Shown: positions 2,461 through 8,200 of the stretch, in pieces
Numbering within the stretch: position 1 is the first letter of the stretch
Layout of the letters: each line of letters opens with the position of its first letter
Assembly: GCF_009914755.1 (NCBI RefSeq)
Contig: NC_060942.1
Direction: 5' to 3' (one strand)
Source of the DNA: the human T2T-CHM13v2.0 reference genome, Homo sapiens
Length of the DNA stretch: 64,000 nt
Notes under the pieces: model-generated
What the model saw: the letters and a program-made list of their open reading frames with translations, nothing else
Told to the model about the DNA's origin: nothing
The model's database searches: none
Translations under genes and position numbers: made by a program

Positions 2461-3059
2461 GAATCGCTCAGGGTCCTTGGAAAGAAGTGACCTTGATTTG
2501 ATCTTCCCACCCACTATCCCAGTTTCTCAGAGGCAGTCAACACTGTTCCCACCAAACCACTCCCAAAAGAAACACTAAGCATGTAAGTAAGTGGGACAAT
2601 AAAAATTTAAAAATAATTTTAAAATAGAACAGCTTAGAGATAGAAACTAAATTATTTCCAATTCCTACTGTGCCCCAAACAAGGTTCACAAAAGGGCTGT
2701 CCTCCCAACAATTTTCTGAATTCTATATATTCAGCATTAAATTCCATGATAAAGTTGGAAATCCATTCACCATTTGTAATACATATTGATGCATTTAATA
2801 AAATTGCATGGGCCGTATCTTTTGCATTTCTGTATCCTAGTATTAAGTACAGTGCCTACCACAGGCCAGGTTCTCAATACTTGAATAAATGACACAAAAA
2901 TAGCCAGGACCAGCAAGTTTTTTCTGGGTGGGCTTCATAGAATCTCTGTACTTGCTGGAATCACCATGAAATCCATGGTCTTCAGCTTTGCATTTTCAGC
3001 AACATAGTTATATTGAGTTATCCTCAGGTGAGCAGTGAGACCCTTGGGAGCGGATTCAT

Positions 3060-3722
3060 GGTAGGGTGGCTTTGTAATGTGTCACCTTGGTGAGGCTATG
3101 TTTCCCGGAACTCTCTTCCAGTAAGATGGGCCACAAGAGACATTTTGCTTGATAACCGGAGGGCGGAAGTGAAGCAGCAGCACATTGTTTTTACACTTGG
3201 AAGGTTGGTGCTGGGGCACCAGGCGTTGTTGCAGTTCACACGTTGCCATGTATCTGCTAGATCACCTCGTTGGTGTGGGCAGTAGTCAGGCCTGCAGCCA
3301 GGCCTGCAGCTGCTCCACCTTCCCCAGGATCATCCTTTCAGCTTCTCTAATTCCTGGGCCAGATGCATATTTAACTCTGTGAGGAAGGGCACCAGCTTCT
3401 TCTGCAGGACACCCACATCATCGAAGCTGGAGGTGGTGAGAGACTGACATGGGTTCCAGGCCATCCTCGTGGGTTCCAGCTCGTGCTCGTGGGCTCCACT
3501 GTGTCCTCGGTCTCCCACACTTTACATCCATCTTCCCTTCCCGAGTGCCTGCCCTGCAGACTTCAAGCTCCAGCATTAGATGCAAAGACAACAGCCTTAC
3601 AGAGACTGTTTAACCAGCTCCCACAATGGCATGCGGTCAGATCCCTATAATAAATCCCTTAAAATACATATATACATAATCTTTATCTTAGTGGTTCTGC
3701 TCCTCTGATTGTACCCTAACAT
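3060..3722 (+). mobile_element. ERVL solo LTR (LTR52/LTR41-like) containing an APOA4-like fragment
   Basis: Starts GGTGGCTTTGTAATGTGTCACCTTGG..GGGCGGAAGTGAAGCAGCAG and ends ...CCCTATAATAAATCCC...GTGGTTCTGCTCCTCTGATTGTACCCTAAC, typical ERVL LTR ends. Subfamily from recall. Confidence 0.7.
3371..3560 (-). CDS. MBD1: MBD1 alternative terminal exon exonised from the LTR: (S)LQGRHSGREDGCKVWE...SWCPSSQS*
   Basis: gaag acceptor at 3562-3561, phase 2, open for 63 codons to TAA at 3373-3371. A second acceptor 7 nt downstream gives (R)AGTREGKMDVKCG...HHLQLR*. Both match MBD1 isoform ends I recall. Confidence 0.7.
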
Positions 3723-4801
3723 AAATGGTCAGCAGAAGCTTAACTCATGAGTCTAAATGTCAATCAAATAAATTTCATATAGATCATTGTCAAAATTACC
3801 AGAATACTGGGGTTGGGTGGTTGGTTCCTGGGGGAAACAAAGCAGTATCAGTCTATCCAGTCTTGACTAGGGCTGAACTAGTTAGGATGGAATAAAGGAA
3901 GGGGTGGGGAAGGTGGCAGAGGCTGGACTGTATGAGACAGAACTGGGAAATGGCTAATCCATGTCTGAATTACTTAAAGCTGCAGGGCTGGGACTAGGGT
4001 AAGGCAAGGGAGGCACACAGGATACAAAGTTTAAGGAGGCACTCACTCAGTCCTGGCCCTGTAAAGCTGGCTAACAAATTACAGGTCTAATCTTTTTGGC
4101 ACTTTATGAATGAAGAATTGGGAGAGAGTGAGGTAGGGCTGAGCCAAGACTGGCTCTTGGGCAGGACTCGAAGCAGGAATTCAGCCTCCTAGAACACATT
4201 CAGGCTGAGGGCAGGAGCCAAGCACAAAGGTGATCACAGGGCAGGAGATGCACGTTGTCAGGAAAGATGAGCCAGGCTGGCAGCTTTAGTTACAAAGACT
4301 GCTCTGGCTGAAGAGGGGGAGTCAGGGTAACAAGCAAAATGGACAGCAGCCAGTGGGGAGATATATCCTGTAGGGTTTGAGGAATCCTATGCAGCACCTG
4401 GGGTCTGCAGGAAACCCAGTTTCTGTATGAACAGATGCTCTGACAAGGTGACCCCATCTACATTGAGCCTTGGCACTCCCTAAACCATGCTAGAGACAGG
4501 AATGTAAGGGATTTATTATAGTAATTATAGTAATCTGTGTTTTCAAGGTCACCGAAAACTCCTGTTAGTGCATACAGGATTACAGGTTACAGTTTAGTGG
4601 AGTAAAGAACAAGGGCTTTAAAAGCTGGGTTTGAGTCTAGGCTCTACTAACACCAGCTGTTCGACATTGGACAAATTAATGAGTCTCAGTTTTCCCATCC
4701 ACATAAATGGACAAAATCAATGTCTTCCCAAAAATATTATTTTAAGGATTAAATAAACTGGGTCCACAGAGGAACACACCAAATAGCAGTTCCTTTCCTT
4801 A

Positions 4802-4807: not shown

Positions 4808-5242
4808 CAATTACATTTTCAATTGCTATCTCCCTGAGGAAGTATGTAGAGACACTGCCAGGTCTCATCCAGAAGCCACTTACAATTACTCATGAACATG
4901 GCTTGTTTAGGTTGTTTTGTGGTGGCTTTAATTATATTACCTTTCTCCAACCCAGCTCCCCCACCCTTAAAATCCAACTTCTTATACTCAGGCTCTTGGG
5001 GAGGAGAAGATGCACCAACTTTCTACTCTTTCTCTTCCTTTCCCGCTTACTTCTTCTAGAAGCTCAAAGTACTCTTAGGCCTGCTCTTCTGGTTTGGTAG
5101 TAGGTTTTTCCTCCTAGGGTTGATTCACACACAAGCCCTGGCAACCAATCTAGGGTCCAGCCCCTAGTAGATCAGTGTTGTCTCTCATAAAGCCAGTCTG
5201 CAAATATCACCTTGAATCCTACAGTCTGTAGAAGCCTCCAGT

Positions 5243-8200
5243 CTACTGCTTTCTAGCTCCAGGTTTTTTAAGGTCTTTGGACCTAGGGAAAAGGGAGCAG
5301 GTCTGTATGTTGAATGAGGTTTGCTATGTGCGCAATGGAGCATTACAAAACCATTTCCTACTATTCTGTGTCCTCCATCCACTTCCCCTTAATTATCCTT
5401 TATCTTTTTTTATATCTTCTAAAAACTACCATTATAGACAGCTTGTACATAGTCAGATTATAAGCTCCCTGAAGGTAGGTATCCTGTGTCTCCTGAAGGG
5501 TAAGCTTTGCAGGGCTCATTGTCCTCAATGCTGTGCACCCAACAGGAACTCAATCAATACTTCTGTAATTGGCCAAGTATAGATGAAAGGGTTTCTAGCC
5601 TGGTGGGCTGGTTTGTAGGAGCAAAGGAATCCAAGTGCTTAGGCCAATAGTTTACATCGCCAGTGTCTGGGGCTCTATGCAGGGTCTGTCAATATTCTGC
5701 AGGAGCCAGCACTCCTCTGTCCTCCCAACCACCCTAGTCCTTACAGGCATCTACCCTTTGTTCTATGCCAGGACTACAGGGACAGTTCTGCAAGGCATCT
5801 GAAGTTAATAACCTCAATAGGCTCAGGAAAGGCTCAAGAGATCCAGCCCAAGCCCTTCCACAGAGGCCGCTCCAGGAAGTGCAGGGCAACCAGAGATCAC
5901 ACAACTACGTGTGAACCCAGCTCACAAAGCCAGCTCGGAACCCAGATCTCCTGCCCATACCACTACCCAGGCAAGCCCAGCACCATTTCTCTGGTACACA
6001 TTGCTCAATGTCAGGCAACAGCCCACCCAGAGGTCTCCTGGAGACTCTAAAGGCCTTCAAGACCCAAATGATTATTCTCTGAATAAGAATTTATATATTA
6101 AAGCTGACCCCTATAGAAATTCCTTAGGAAAATAGGGACCAGACTCCCTATCTTTTTCTTTCAAATCTCATGATAGAGTACCAAGTCTTTCCCCTACCCC
6201 CAAAGGAGAGTCCTAACCTGGAATGCTATTGGGCTGGATCTCAGGAGAAATCTCTAGGGTCCTACACACACGCCCCTCATTAATTGTGACCAGCATAGTG
6301 GGTATGGGCCTTTACCTCCCACCACACCATGCCAAACTGCCGGCTATACTTTCAAAACTCAGGGCCCACATCTGGCCAACACCCACTCCTTCCCCACCCC
6401 TCACTGTGTGGGGCACACCTTGGCAACCAGACTGCTGTATCTCGGAAGCGGGTTCCACCCAGGCTGAAAATCTCCGTGATCTAGAGAAGAATTAACACCA
6501 TAGGTCAATGTGGTTGTTGGGGCTACAGCAGGGTCAGGGCAGGGTGGGGCATCCCCAGCACTGACCACGGGTGTGCCAGCCCCTCCTGCCTCTTCCTCTG
6601 GGGCCAATTTGGAGGCAGAATCATCCTTGTTCTCCTCCTTGTCCTCCTCTGGGTCAGGTGGCTCTTGCTTCACAGAAGGCAGGCCTGGGTCTACTGCCTG
6701 GGAGAAGTAGGAAACAGGCAACCATTAGAAGGGCAGAGTTCACCTGAGGAAAGTCTCTATCAGCCAACCCCTCACTGTGCTGACAAATCCTACTTCCATC
6801 ACATTTCAACACAGAAAGTCCATCTCTCTGCCTACAAAGCTTTCCCATTCCCATTCCTCACTGACCTCCGTTTTTCTGTTAGCTGGATAGCAAAGCGGGC
6901 AAAGCTAGTTGCCTGTGGGAGGTAGGGTGTCTGTTAGACAGGCGGGGTAATTCTGCAGAAACGTCGCAATCAGCACATCTATTGCTCTGCTCAAGAGAAC
7001 CATCATGGCTCATCATCACTCTGCTTACAGACCACTCCGCTACGGCACCAACAGAACATCCATCACTGCCCCCACCTTGCTAGGGCAGCCAGGCACCAAT
7101 ACGGGAGAAGTCAGGACAGCTGTGCCTGGTGTCCACTCGTCCTGGGTATCCGCCTTCTCTTGCTTCACCTGGGGTAAGGCCACAACCCAACTCAGGCCAG
7201 AGCACTGGGCCTCCTGCGTGAGGGAGGATTGCAGCAGACTTGGTCTCAGCTCCCTGGCATGCAGCTGGGTGAGGCTGGGAAGGCAGGACAGGGTGGGGCC
7301 CTCACCTGCAACAGGGCTTCTGTGGAAGCTGCAACAGGGCCCGGCACCTGCACAGGACTGCTTGCGCCTTCCCGTAAAAACACAAGGTCAGTGCCAGGCG
7401 GGGGCAGCACAAAGCCACCACCTGCTTCCTGCTTCGTTGGAGCCTGGGTATGGTCTGGTTGGGCTGTGCGTGTAGCCAAGGTGGGCTTCAAGGTAGGGCC
7501 AAGATGGTGCCGTCGGGCAGAGCTGGGCCTCTTTCGACGACGGTAAGGTGGGGGCGATCCTGCCCCATCCTCAGACTCTGACCAGACACTGGGCAGCAGC
7601 CGCTTCTATGGGGAAAGATAGGGTGCTATGGCTACCTGGTGTCCTGACCAATCACATCCACCCTGCCCGGCTCCACATGCCTGCTAATCTCCCATCAGTC
7701 CCAGCACGGAATCTGCTTACATATGAGCCCTTCATCACTGAGCCTGCTAGTCTCCTATTAGCAACACCAATGCCACCTAGACTCATTAAGCCAAGAACAA
7801 TGTCTGTTAATCCTCAACCAAAGCTACTGCCCCACCCACCCACCTACCAAGCCTGCCCACCACTTCCAGGCACTGGGGCGCCTGGCCCAACCTATCCCGT
7901 CCACCTGACCCTTCCTGCCCCACCCACCATGGCAAACTGCAGGCATTGGCGCCAACGACACTTCTGGCGCTTCTGGTTGCTGCCCCCGAATTTGGGCTTG
8001 TCGCAGCAGAAGTCGCAGCGGCCACAGTCCATCCGCCGTAGGCAGGCTGCACAGGCCCCGCACTTGCGGTTCTGCCGGCGGTTCGTGTAGGGCTGCTGGG
8101 GTGGGGGGAATGGGTGGTGCTGTCAACTAGGACTAGGAGAGGCCATCCTCAACGCCTATTCCAGTGCTGGTCCTGGTGCTCCTCTAGCCCCATAAGACGG

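What the first reader, a model, noticed from the sequence alone, without database searches (positions are those of the whole stretch)
3214..3419. Apolipoprotein A-IV-like coding fragment captured inside an LTR, then partly re-exonised by MBD1 in another frame
Seen: the minus strand reads [28 protein letters not shown] / ILGKVEQLQA(WLQA)*LLP / TNEVI*QIHGNV / ELQQRLVP, with frameshifts and a 12-bp duplication at 3287-3310. From knowledge: human APOA4 has [65 protein letters not shown]. The fragment is antisense to the LTR and sits between normal LTR ends. Inference: the retroviral progenitor transduced host APOA4 mRNA. The MBD1 isoform ending ...MMWVSCRRSWCPSSQS reads the same bases in a shifted frame. 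Repeat-library notes may already mention the capture.
Basis: partly seen in the sequence, partly recalled or inferred. Interest (0 to 1): 0.72.

Follow-up and report, generated by a model that had tools for sequence, protein, structure and literature searches.

The report
APOA4 gene fragment inside ancient LTR family
A roughly 190-base piece of the apolipoprotein A-IV coding sequence was picked up long ago by a family of retrovirus-like repeats and spread around the human genome, and the copy near the end of MBD1 now supplies splice sites, a few tail codons and a stop codon to some MBD1 transcripts.

Summary
Window 3413-3214 (minus strand) is 70% identical (142/203) to APOA4 exon 3, codons 74-137. 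APOA4 is the only gene among the whole-genome matches (E 2.7e-12).

The piece is not a local insertion. It is a fixed part of an old, dispersed LTR subfamily, MLT1/MaLR-like by recalled end motifs. At least 72 genomic places carry it. It is present in 28, and weakly in a 29th, of the 29 nearest LTR relatives. It has diverged as much as the flanking LTR.

In a tree the LTR copies group with APOA4, not APOA1, APOA5 or APOE (98/95 support). The 12-bp tandem duplication (3310-3287) is private to this copy.

MBD1's last exon starts at acceptors inside the LTR. If the 72-nt exon is skipped, acceptors 3560 and 3548 give ...MMWVSCRRSWCPSSQS*. Its last 13 codons and its stop lie in APOA4-derived DNA, one base out of the APOA4 frame.

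Not supported: "antisense to the LTR"; both lie on the same strand by recalled library orientation. mRNA versus DNA origin cannot be resolved. No mention was found in print. This is a new member of a known kind, LTR-mediated capture of host sequence.

The parts
3059..3727 (-). Solo LTR of about 669 bp, MLT1/MaLR-like, in the same orientation as MBD1
   Evidence: Homology with dispersed copies reaches from window about 3720 to about 3065. The copies share a 5' end TGTATCAGTCAGGGTTCAATCAGAG-like and a 3' end ...ACATTACAAAGCCAC(C/T)ACA. The family name is from recall of the MLT1 consensus. No clear target-site duplication is seen (CTGAC versus TGAAT).
3214..3413 (-). APOA4-derived segment: exon 3, codons 74-137 of the precursor, sense on the minus strand, with frameshifts and stops
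   Evidence: 142/203 identical to APOA4 ORF nt 85-276; the ORF is identical to PDB Apolipoprotein A-IV residues 60-396 but for one residue (E 2e-209), which fixes the codon numbers; clade with APOA4 at 98/95 support.
3287..3310 (-). Exact 12-bp tandem duplication (GCTGCAGGCCTG twice), private to this copy
   Evidence: absent from APOA4 and from 22 of 22 other LTR copies aligned.
2588..3560 (-). MBD1 terminal exon (annotation). Its 5' 502 bases (3560-3059) are LTR-derived. Alternative acceptors 3553, 3548 and 3657 also lie in the LTR.
   Evidence: Hub annotation. Every acceptor is preceded by AG. Acceptors 3560, 3553 and 3548 lie in the LTR motif GAAG|TCTGCAG|GGCAG|GCAC.
3371..3560 (-). Alternative MBD1 C-terminal coding stretch ...LQGRHSGREDGCKVWETEDTVEPTSTSWNPRGWPGTHVSLSPPPASMMWVSCRRSWCPSSQS with stop TAA at 3373-3371. 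The last 13 codons and the stop are APOA4-derived DNA read one base out of the APOA4 frame.
   Evidence: the coding exons up to 6419-6480 total 1778 nt (phase 2). Joining them to 3560 gives 655 aa and to 3548 gives 651 aa, with the same end. ORF 3371-3562 is listed.
3418..3553 (-). Second alternative C-terminal frame (acceptor 3553): ...AGTREGKMDVKCGRPRTQWSPRARAGTHEDGLEPMSVSHHLQLR, stop TGA at 3420-3418, five bases before the APOA4-derived piece
   Evidence: 637 aa. ORF 3418-3609 is listed.

Best explanation
Before an old MLT1-type (ERVL-MaLR) LTR subfamily amplified, its master copy acquired once, in the middle of its LTR, about 190 bases of the host APOA4 coding sequence (exon 3, codons 74-137). 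The piece was then copied with the LTR to roughly a hundred places and decayed neutrally. The most likely route (inferred, not shown) is two template switches by reverse transcriptase, from the element's RNA to a co-packaged APOA4 transcript and back, which leaves the host piece in sense orientation. The piece is a passenger with no shown function for the element. One solo LTR landed in sense orientation downstream of MBD1's coding exons. Its conserved ...GAAGTCTGCAGGGCAGG... motif now serves as a cluster of 3' splice sites for MBD1's terminal exon. In the selected transcript the LTR is 3' UTR only. In transcripts that skip the 72-nt exon 5211-5282, the LTR supplies the last 44-63 codons, depending on the acceptor. 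With acceptors 3560 or 3548, the final 13 codons and the stop codon come from the APOA4-derived DNA in a shifted frame.
For: APOA4 origin:
- 70% identity over 203 columns to APOA4 nt 85-276.
- APOA4 locus hit at E 2.7e-12 genome-wide.
- PDB APOA4 hit at E 1.8e-6.
- locus L021 is APOA4.
- APOA4 plus 23 LTR copies form a clade at 98/95, excluding APOA1, APOE and the APOA5-position paralogue, which are labelled.

Part of the family, captured once:
- 38 other places match the segment.
- APOA4's own segment finds 38 non-gene places, 4 of them shared, so 72 distinct places in all. Nearly all full-length matches start at APOA4 nt about 80-87, and none passes nt 276.
- 35 of 64 distinct LTR loci held match human APOA4 directly at E <= 0.01, all within nt 82-276.
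- 24 of the 29 loci found with the LTR 5' part alone show the piece.
- the other 5 show it when queried with other copies' segments (hit by 9, 11, 2, 9 and 11 of 23 queries).
- the LTR copies are monophyletic (99/92).
- a 2-base deletion relative to APOA4 is shared by 18 of 22 other copies.

Same age as the LTR:
- mean identity to the window copy is 0.691 in the LTR 5' part and 0.715 in the APOA4-like part, over 24 copies.

Direction gene to LTR:
- the 64 codons align without gaps with APOA1, APOE and the APOA5-position paralogue.

MBD1 use:
- (frames, AG acceptors, stops) together with the hub annotation.

Mechanism precedent:
- Passages of PMC5131818 describe microsimilarity-dependent template switching between LTR-element RNA and host mRNA, with later re-amplification of the chimera.
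Against: - The LTR family name and its sense orientation come from my recall of the MLT1 consensus. No repeat library was available.
- No full-length element was found. The one candidate pair of LTRs is a 95%-identical recent duplication. Flanks of 18 3' ends and 13 5' ends share no internal sequence.
- No 'empty' sister subfamily was recovered, so the junctions and any microsimilarity are untested, and the template-switch step is inference.
- Pfam's apolipoprotein model does not hit the window's frames. One other copy reaches only E 0.39.
- No target-site duplication is visible.
- The 34 places that adds could not be fetched, so their LTR context is unverified.
- The tree rests on 199 columns.
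- The exon-skipping MBD1 transcripts were derived from the exon table, not seen.
Confidence: 0.85

Rival explanations
1. A fragment of an APOA4 processed pseudogene or cDNA was inserted locally into a pre-existing LTR at the MBD1 locus.
For: This is the simplest reading of a single window. The 12-bp duplication is indeed local to this copy.
Against: The same piece, with the same limits and contiguous with the same LTR flanks, is found at 72 or more dispersed places. It is as diverged as the LTR itself.
Confidence: 0.01
2. The piece was taken not from APOA4 itself but from a now-lost APOA4-like duplicate or pseudogene of the ancestral genome, or was captured as genomic DNA by recombination or repair in a master copy and not by template switching on mRNA.
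For: The fragment lies inside one exon, so nothing in it marks mRNA origin. The tree only says 'APOA4 lineage after the split from APOA1, APOA5 and APOE'. A host piece inside the LTR differs from the internal-region replacement described in the passages read of PMC5131818.
Against: No second APOA4-like gene is seen among the PF01442 matches in the genome (above the cut-off only APOA1, APOA4, APOE and the APOA5-position gene). Sense orientation, by recalled LTR orientation, fits RNA template switching.
Confidence: 0.12
3. The resemblance is convergent or compositional, from amphipathic 22-mer repeats and CTGCAG-rich DNA, and there is no common descent.
For: Apolipoprotein repeats are internally repetitive. 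Pfam finds nothing apolipoprotein-like in the window frames.
Against: The match is collinear over about 190 bases to one specific place in APOA4. Other APOA4 repeats and the paralogues give only 9-26-base matches. The genome-wide E is 2.7e-12. Thirty-five independent copies each match the same APOA4 interval.
Confidence: 0.01
4. The transfer went the other way: APOA4 exon 3 took up a piece of the LTR.
For: None beyond the similarity being symmetrical.
Against: Codons 74-137 align without gaps with APOA1, APOE and the APOA5-position paralogue and form the start of the PF01442 domain match. The segment is therefore older than the split of these paralogues.
Confidence: 0.01

Closest known systems
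LTR-mediated retroposition or transduction of host mRNA, such as FAM8A1 captured by HERV-K (Jamain et al. 2001, seen only as cited in passages of PMC5131818), and the maize Bs1 and yeast Ty cases cited there
   Same: A partial host coding sequence is embedded in an LTR retroelement. The chimera itself then amplifies as a non-autonomous element. The host piece is truncated at both ends.
   Different: Here the host piece sits inside the LTR, not in place of internal ORF sequence. It is far older: median end branch 0.27 changes per site, against primate- or rodent-specific cases. It reached about 100 copies. It has no exon junction, so screens based on exon-exon junctions and lineage-specific presence, as described in the Methods passages of PMC5131818, would not find it. 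Microsimilarity at the junctions is untested.
MLT1 subfamilies of ERVL-MaLR (Smit 1993, not held and recalled only; passages of PMC10735291)
   Same: TG...CA ends. The 5' motif TGTATCAGTCAGGGTTC... and the 3' motif ...GTTGACACAT.A.AA..CACCACA are recalled and are seen in copies. The copies are dispersed solo LTRs with high divergence. PMC10735291 says that most MLT1 members are widespread in eutherians and absent from opossum.
   Different: The middle third of this subfamily's LTR is host APOA4 coding sequence. I could not name the subfamily or check whether its library entry notes this.
Exonisation of LTR elements in human genes (PMC2008291, Piriyapongsa et al. 2007; title, abstract start and a term search only)
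   Same: A sense-oriented LTR provides 3' splice sites, alternative C-terminal codons, a stop codon and 3' UTR to a host gene.
   Different: The term search found no MBD1 or MLT1 in the main text of that paper. Here part of the exonised DNA is second-hand host coding sequence, read in a different frame from its source.

Membership tests
MLT1 / ERVL-MaLR LTR | Match to a library (Dfam/Repbase) consensus of an MLT1 subfamily | not testable with these tools
   No repeat library is on hand. The assignment rests on recalled end motifs.
MLT1 / ERVL-MaLR LTR | Dispersed, diverged copies with shared, sharply defined ends (TG...CA) and unrelated flanks | tested here: met
   5' ends (TGTATCAGTCAGGG-like) and 3' ends (...CAC(C/T)ACA) are shared; 0 shared pairs among 18 downstream flanks. 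One shared pair among 13 upstream flanks lies at different offsets and is probably a common repeat.
MLT1 / ERVL-MaLR LTR | Occurs as paired LTRs around an internal region with a primer-binding site and a polypurine tract, which fixes orientation | tested here: not met
   No full-length element among 92 loci. The L062/L093 pair is a 95%-identical recent duplication. Only solo LTRs were seen, so this is not evidence against membership.
MLT1 / ERVL-MaLR LTR | Short target-site duplication (5 bp, recalled) | tested here: inconclusive
   Window flanks are CTGAC and TGAAT. Decay is expected at this age.
Apolipoprotein A1/A4/E family (PF01442), as a derived fragment and not a functional member | Significant match to the Pfam model | tested here: not met
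   the five window frames tested give no PF01442 hit at E <= 10; the only hit is DUF1805 (E 0.023, below its cut-off) in frame 3286-3417; one other LTR copy (L049) reaches E 0.39 only. The fragment is broken and covers about a third of the model.
Apolipoprotein A1/A4/E family (PF01442), as a derived fragment and not a functional member | Collinear nucleotide and protein homology to a specific member (APOA4) | tested here: met
LTR-mediated host-sequence capture (template-switch retroposition) | Host fragment flanked on both sides by sequence of one LTR element, with the chimera re-amplified | tested here: met
LTR-mediated host-sequence capture (template-switch retroposition) | Intron loss, proving an RNA intermediate | not testable with these tools
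   The fragment lies wholly within APOA4 exon 3, which starts in codon 59.
LTR-mediated host-sequence capture (template-switch retroposition) | Microsimilarity between element and host mRNA at the switch points | not tested
   This needs the insert-free sister LTR, which was not recovered.

The most novel reading that the evidence does not exclude
This would be the oldest and most widely amplified capture of host coding sequence known for a mammalian LTR element, and the first placed inside the LTR itself. An entire eutherian-age MLT1-type subfamily would carry APOA4 codons 74-137 as the middle of its LTR, unrecorded in print. That would identify host mRNA as one source of the unexplained, subfamily-specific central regions of MaLR LTRs. 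It would also leave about 100 neutral 'fossil' copies of an early-eutherian APOA4 sequence, one of which now encodes the end of MBD1 isoforms in a shifted frame.
Probability: 0.4. Interest if true: 0.62.

Novelty: new member of a known kind. Interest (0 to 1): 0.5.

Why it matters
1. It gives a concrete origin for the central part of one MaLR LTR subfamily. By my recollection these LTRs share their ends but differ in unexplained middles.
2. It extends LTR-mediated capture of host sequence in mammals to a much older case. Passages of PMC5131818 report three retrocopies in human. This case lies within the LTR and is highly amplified, and junction-based screens cannot see it.
3. It has practical effects on annotation. 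About 100 dispersed APOA4-like stretches can produce spurious apolipoprotein hits in translated searches. One copy already gives a weak PF01442 match.
4. It documents that MBD1's terminal exon, its tandem acceptors and the alternative C-termini of its longer isoforms are LTR-derived. Thirteen residues and the stop come from frame-shifted APOA4 DNA. This bears on whether those tails are functional.

Tried and rejected
- Literature. No relevant paper came up for 'MLT1' + 'apolipoprotein A-IV' (0 papers). The same holds for 'MaLR' + 'apolipoprotein' + 'LTR' (32 papers held all three terms, 15 were listed by title and abstract start, and one, PMC2008291, was term-searched; its only apolipoprotein mention is the APOC1 promoter reference). 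Also nothing relevant for 'MBD1' + 'MLT1' (2 irrelevant), 'APOA4' + 'MLT1' (1 irrelevant, checked), 'apolipoprotein A-IV' + 'endogenous retrovir' + 'transduc' (2 irrelevant) or 'apolipoprotein A-IV' + 'Repbase' (1 irrelevant).
- PMC3597677, a screen of host genes in transposable elements, has no apolipoprotein, MLT1 or MaLR in its main text. Its supplements were not read.
- PMC12587658, on MLT1 in placenta, has no APOA4 or MBD1.
- Smit 1993 and Zdobnov 2005 are not held.
- Orientation by a full-length element: L062 looked like two LTRs, but they are a 95%-identical duplication. Shared internal flanks: none.
- Other relatives inside the window: none.
- Insert-free copies: the five candidates (L056, L068, L070, L076, L078) turned out to carry diverged versions of the piece.
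They remain unexamined.
- A weak PDB hit of the LTR frame to CIAO1 (E 7e-4, short repeated 'aWnP' motif, no stretch significant on its own) and a DUF1805 Pfam hit (E 0.023, below cut-off) were judged chance.

Full report
**1. The observation**

- ...[29 protein letters not shown] (frame 3330-3521)
- ...ILGKVEQLQAWLQA (3286-3417)
- ...TNEVI (3257-3337)
- ...ELQQRLVP... (3082-3261)
- the MBD1-type frame ...MMWVSCRRSWCPSSQS (3371-3562)

The 12-bp duplication is exact: GCTGCAGGCCTG at 3310-3299 and again at 3298-3287.

**2. Is it APOA4, and beyond chance?**

- The first frame piece hits PDB 'Apolipoprotein A-IV' (9hx4_F residues 73-99) at E 1.8e-6.
- A search of the window's own 3.1-Gb genome with window 3440-3200 found a place on contig 11 (locus L021) at 70% identity over query 28-227, E 2.7e-12.
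- L021 holds a 351-codon open frame. Its residues 15-351 match PDB APOA4 residues 60-396 with one residue different, E 2e-209. L021 is therefore APOA4, exon 3 starts within codon 59, and the matched interval is codons 74-137.
- The pairwise DNA alignment is 142/203 identical with 14 gap columns, window 3413-3214 against ORF nt 85-276.
- The exon-level ORFs of APOA1 (L031, labelled), APOE (L033) and the paralogue about 31 kb away give only 11-17-base matches. That paralogue (L034) is APOA5 by position and recall. One search shows it is a distinct family member.
- Pfam's PF01442 does not reach any window frame. The evidence is therefore nucleotide homology and the PDB hit, not a domain call.
- No retroviral family was found in these frames either. 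The one Pfam hit at E <= 10 is DUF1805 (E 0.023, below its cut-off) in frame 3286-3417.

**3. It is a family feature, not a local insertion**

- One search listed 40 matches (79 candidates, 40 scored): the window itself, APOA4, and 38 dispersed places.
- Aligning the fetched loci to window 3800-3000 shows that most are collinear from about 3660 through the APOA4-like piece to about 3294. Some continue to 3181, 3135 or 3065.
- Searching with the LTR 5' part alone (3730-3420; 217 candidates, 40 scored) gave 29 non-self loci. Of these, 24 show the piece in alignments to the window or to APOA4.
- The other five (L056, L068, L070, L076, L078) carry diverged versions, which are found when the other copies' segments are used as queries. 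They are hit by 9, 11, 2, 9 and 11 of 23 queries. L070 is weak.
- Searching with the LTR 3' part (11 candidates, 11 matches, one of them the window itself) again found members that are collinear through the piece, such as L086 over 3712-3065.
- Of 64 distinct LTR loci held, 35 match human APOA4 directly at E <= 0.01, all within ORF nt 82-276.
- Using APOA4's own interval as the query returned 38 non-gene places. Four are shared. Identity reaches 84%, nearly all full-length matches start at nt about 80-87, and none passes nt 276.
- together therefore give 72 distinct places. The LTR-based searches add about two dozen more. These are lower bounds, because each search scores only 40 candidates.

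**4. Same age as the LTR; single origin**

- In 24 copies that span both parts, mean identity to the window copy is 0.691 in the LTR 5' part and 0.715 in the APOA4-like part.
- The tree used the window piece, 22 other copies (those with at least 110 aligned bases, three duplicate loci dropped) and the homologous 64-codon segments of APOA4, APOA1, APOE and the APOA5-position gene. Those gene segments come from a gap-free protein alignment.
- The tree puts APOA4 with all 23 LTR copies at 98/95 support, and the LTR copies together at 99/92 (199 columns, IQ-TREE).
- The median end branch is 0.27 changes per site, so the copies are old.
- Passages of PMC10735291 state that MLT1 members other than MLT1A1 and MLT1C2 are widespread in eutherians and absent from opossum. 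That is the age range I infer here.
- In the alignment, 18 of 22 other copies share a 2-base gap relative to APOA4 just after GAAGG. L016 has 3, the window 1, and L018, L020 and L026 none.
- The 12-bp duplication is in none of the 22 other copies nor in APOA4, so it is private to the MBD1 copy.

**5. The carrier**

- Copies share a 5' end of the type TGTATCAGTCAGGGTTCAATCAGAG and a 3' end ...ACATTACAAAGCCAC(C/T)ACA, with unrelated flanks. This places the window LTR at about 3727-3059.
- From memory, these are the ends of MLT1 (MaLR) LTRs in library orientation. No repeat library was available to test this or to name the subfamily.
- On that orientation, the LTR, the APOA4 sense strand and MBD1 all run on the minus strand.
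- I tried to fix the orientation independently and failed. The only apparent LTR pair (L062/L093) is a recent 95%-identical duplication. No shared internal flank exists among the loci.
- The window holds no other relative of this LTR.

**6. Mechanism**

Shown:
- There was one capture before amplification.
- The direction was gene to element, because codons 74-137 are shared with the paralogues.
- The piece has decayed neutrally since.

Inferred: a double template switch during reverse transcription onto a co-packaged APOA4 transcript. This is the model laid out, with precedents, in the passages of PMC5131818 that I read.

Limits and differences:
- The fragment lies within one exon, so RNA versus DNA origin cannot be told.
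- Without the insert-free sister LTR, junction microsimilarity is untested.
- The cases described in those passages replace internal ORF sequence. Here the piece is inside the LTR.

**7. MBD1**

- By the hub annotation the terminal exon is 2588-3560, with alternative starts at 3553, 3548, 3657 and 3827.
- All are preceded by AG. The starts 3560, 3553 and 3548 lie in the LTR's GAAG|TCTGCAG|GGCAG|GCAC motif.
- The coding exons through 6419-6480 total 1778 nt, which is phase 2.
- The selected transcript stops in the 72-nt exon 5211-5282 (605 aa, ...KKPGARKQ*). For it the LTR is 3' UTR only.

If the 72-nt exon is skipped, one search gives:

| Acceptor | Protein length | C-terminal end | Stop codon |
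|---|---|---|---|
| 3560 | 655 aa | ...MMWVSCRRSWCPSSQS* | TAA 3373-3371 |
| 3548 | 651 aa | ...MMWVSCRRSWCPSSQS* | TAA 3373-3371 |
| 3553 | 637 aa | ...SVSHHLQLR* | TGA 3420-3418 |
| 3657 | 596 aa | ...VWLPRDLL* | TAA 3647-3645 |
| 3827 | 613 aa | ...LTMIYMKFI* | TGA 3766-3764 |

- APOA4 homology begins at 3413. For acceptors 3560 and 3548, the residues VSCRRSWCPSSQS and the stop are therefore encoded by APOA4-derived DNA, one base out of the APOA4 frame.
- I derived these exon combinations from the exon table. I did not see the individual transcripts.

**8. Comparison and novelty**

- The kind is known: capture of partial host coding sequence by an LTR element, followed by re-amplification. 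Examples are FAM8A1/HERV-K, Bs1 and Ty, as cited in PMC5131818.
- This case differs in position (inside the LTR), in age, in copy number, and in its secondary exonisation in another frame.
- Seven full-text searches found no mention of it.
- Repeat-library notes, Smit 1993, Zdobnov 2005 and the supplements of PMC3597677 could not be checked, and any of them may record it.
- I rate it a new member of a known kind, with moderate interest.

**9. Left open**

- Subfamily name and library notes.
- LTR orientation by an independent test.
- Junction microsimilarity.
- Phyletic distribution.
- The 34 unexamined places that adds.
- Expression and translation of the LTR-ended MBD1 isoforms.

Noticed in passing
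L062 / L093 (contig 17, L093 411-674 and 1864-2127): Two stretches holding the 5' part of an LTR of this family lie 1.45 kb apart and are 95% identical. That is far more alike than the family's copies, which are about 70% identical, so this is a recent local tandem duplication and not a 5'/3' LTR pair.
   Followed up: partly
L004 / L049 (contig 15, about 72019647-72019824): One LTR copy keeps a 104-codon open frame through the APOA4-like piece and gives a weak PF01442 match (E 0.39, profile positions 18-67). This is the kind of copy that can produce spurious apolipoprotein-like gene predictions.
   Followed up: no
L083 (contig 24) and L084 (contig 23): Copies on the two sex chromosomes give near-identical alignments to the window LTR (3630-3128 and 3690-3128). 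They are presumably one insertion in an X/Y-homologous region.
   Followed up: no
L018, L020, L026 versus the other copies (alignment): Three copies lack the 2-base deletion that most copies share relative to APOA4, and they branch early in the tree. This hints at an older sub-lineage whose APOA4 frame was still continuous at that point.
   Followed up: partly
One search places, such as contig 6 at about 107969114-107969223 and contig 18 at about 22827356-22827506: Some APOA4-like places are noticeably closer to human APOA4 (84% and 78%) than the copies studied (about 70%). They could not be fetched, so it is unknown whether they are LTR copies of a less decayed lineage or something else.
   Followed up: no
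window 3553-3418, minus strand: With acceptor 3553 the MBD1 frame stops at TGA 3420-3418, five bases before the APOA4-derived DNA begins. The three tandem acceptors thus toggle between two LTR-encoded tails.
   Followed up: partly
Genome-wide PF01442 search, such as L036 on contig 10 at about 1674179-1674562: Several sub-threshold PF01442 matches lie outside the known apolipoprotein genes (best 50.8 bits, E 2.6e-10, 316-codon open frame). They were not examined and may be coiled-coil look-alikes.
   Followed up: no
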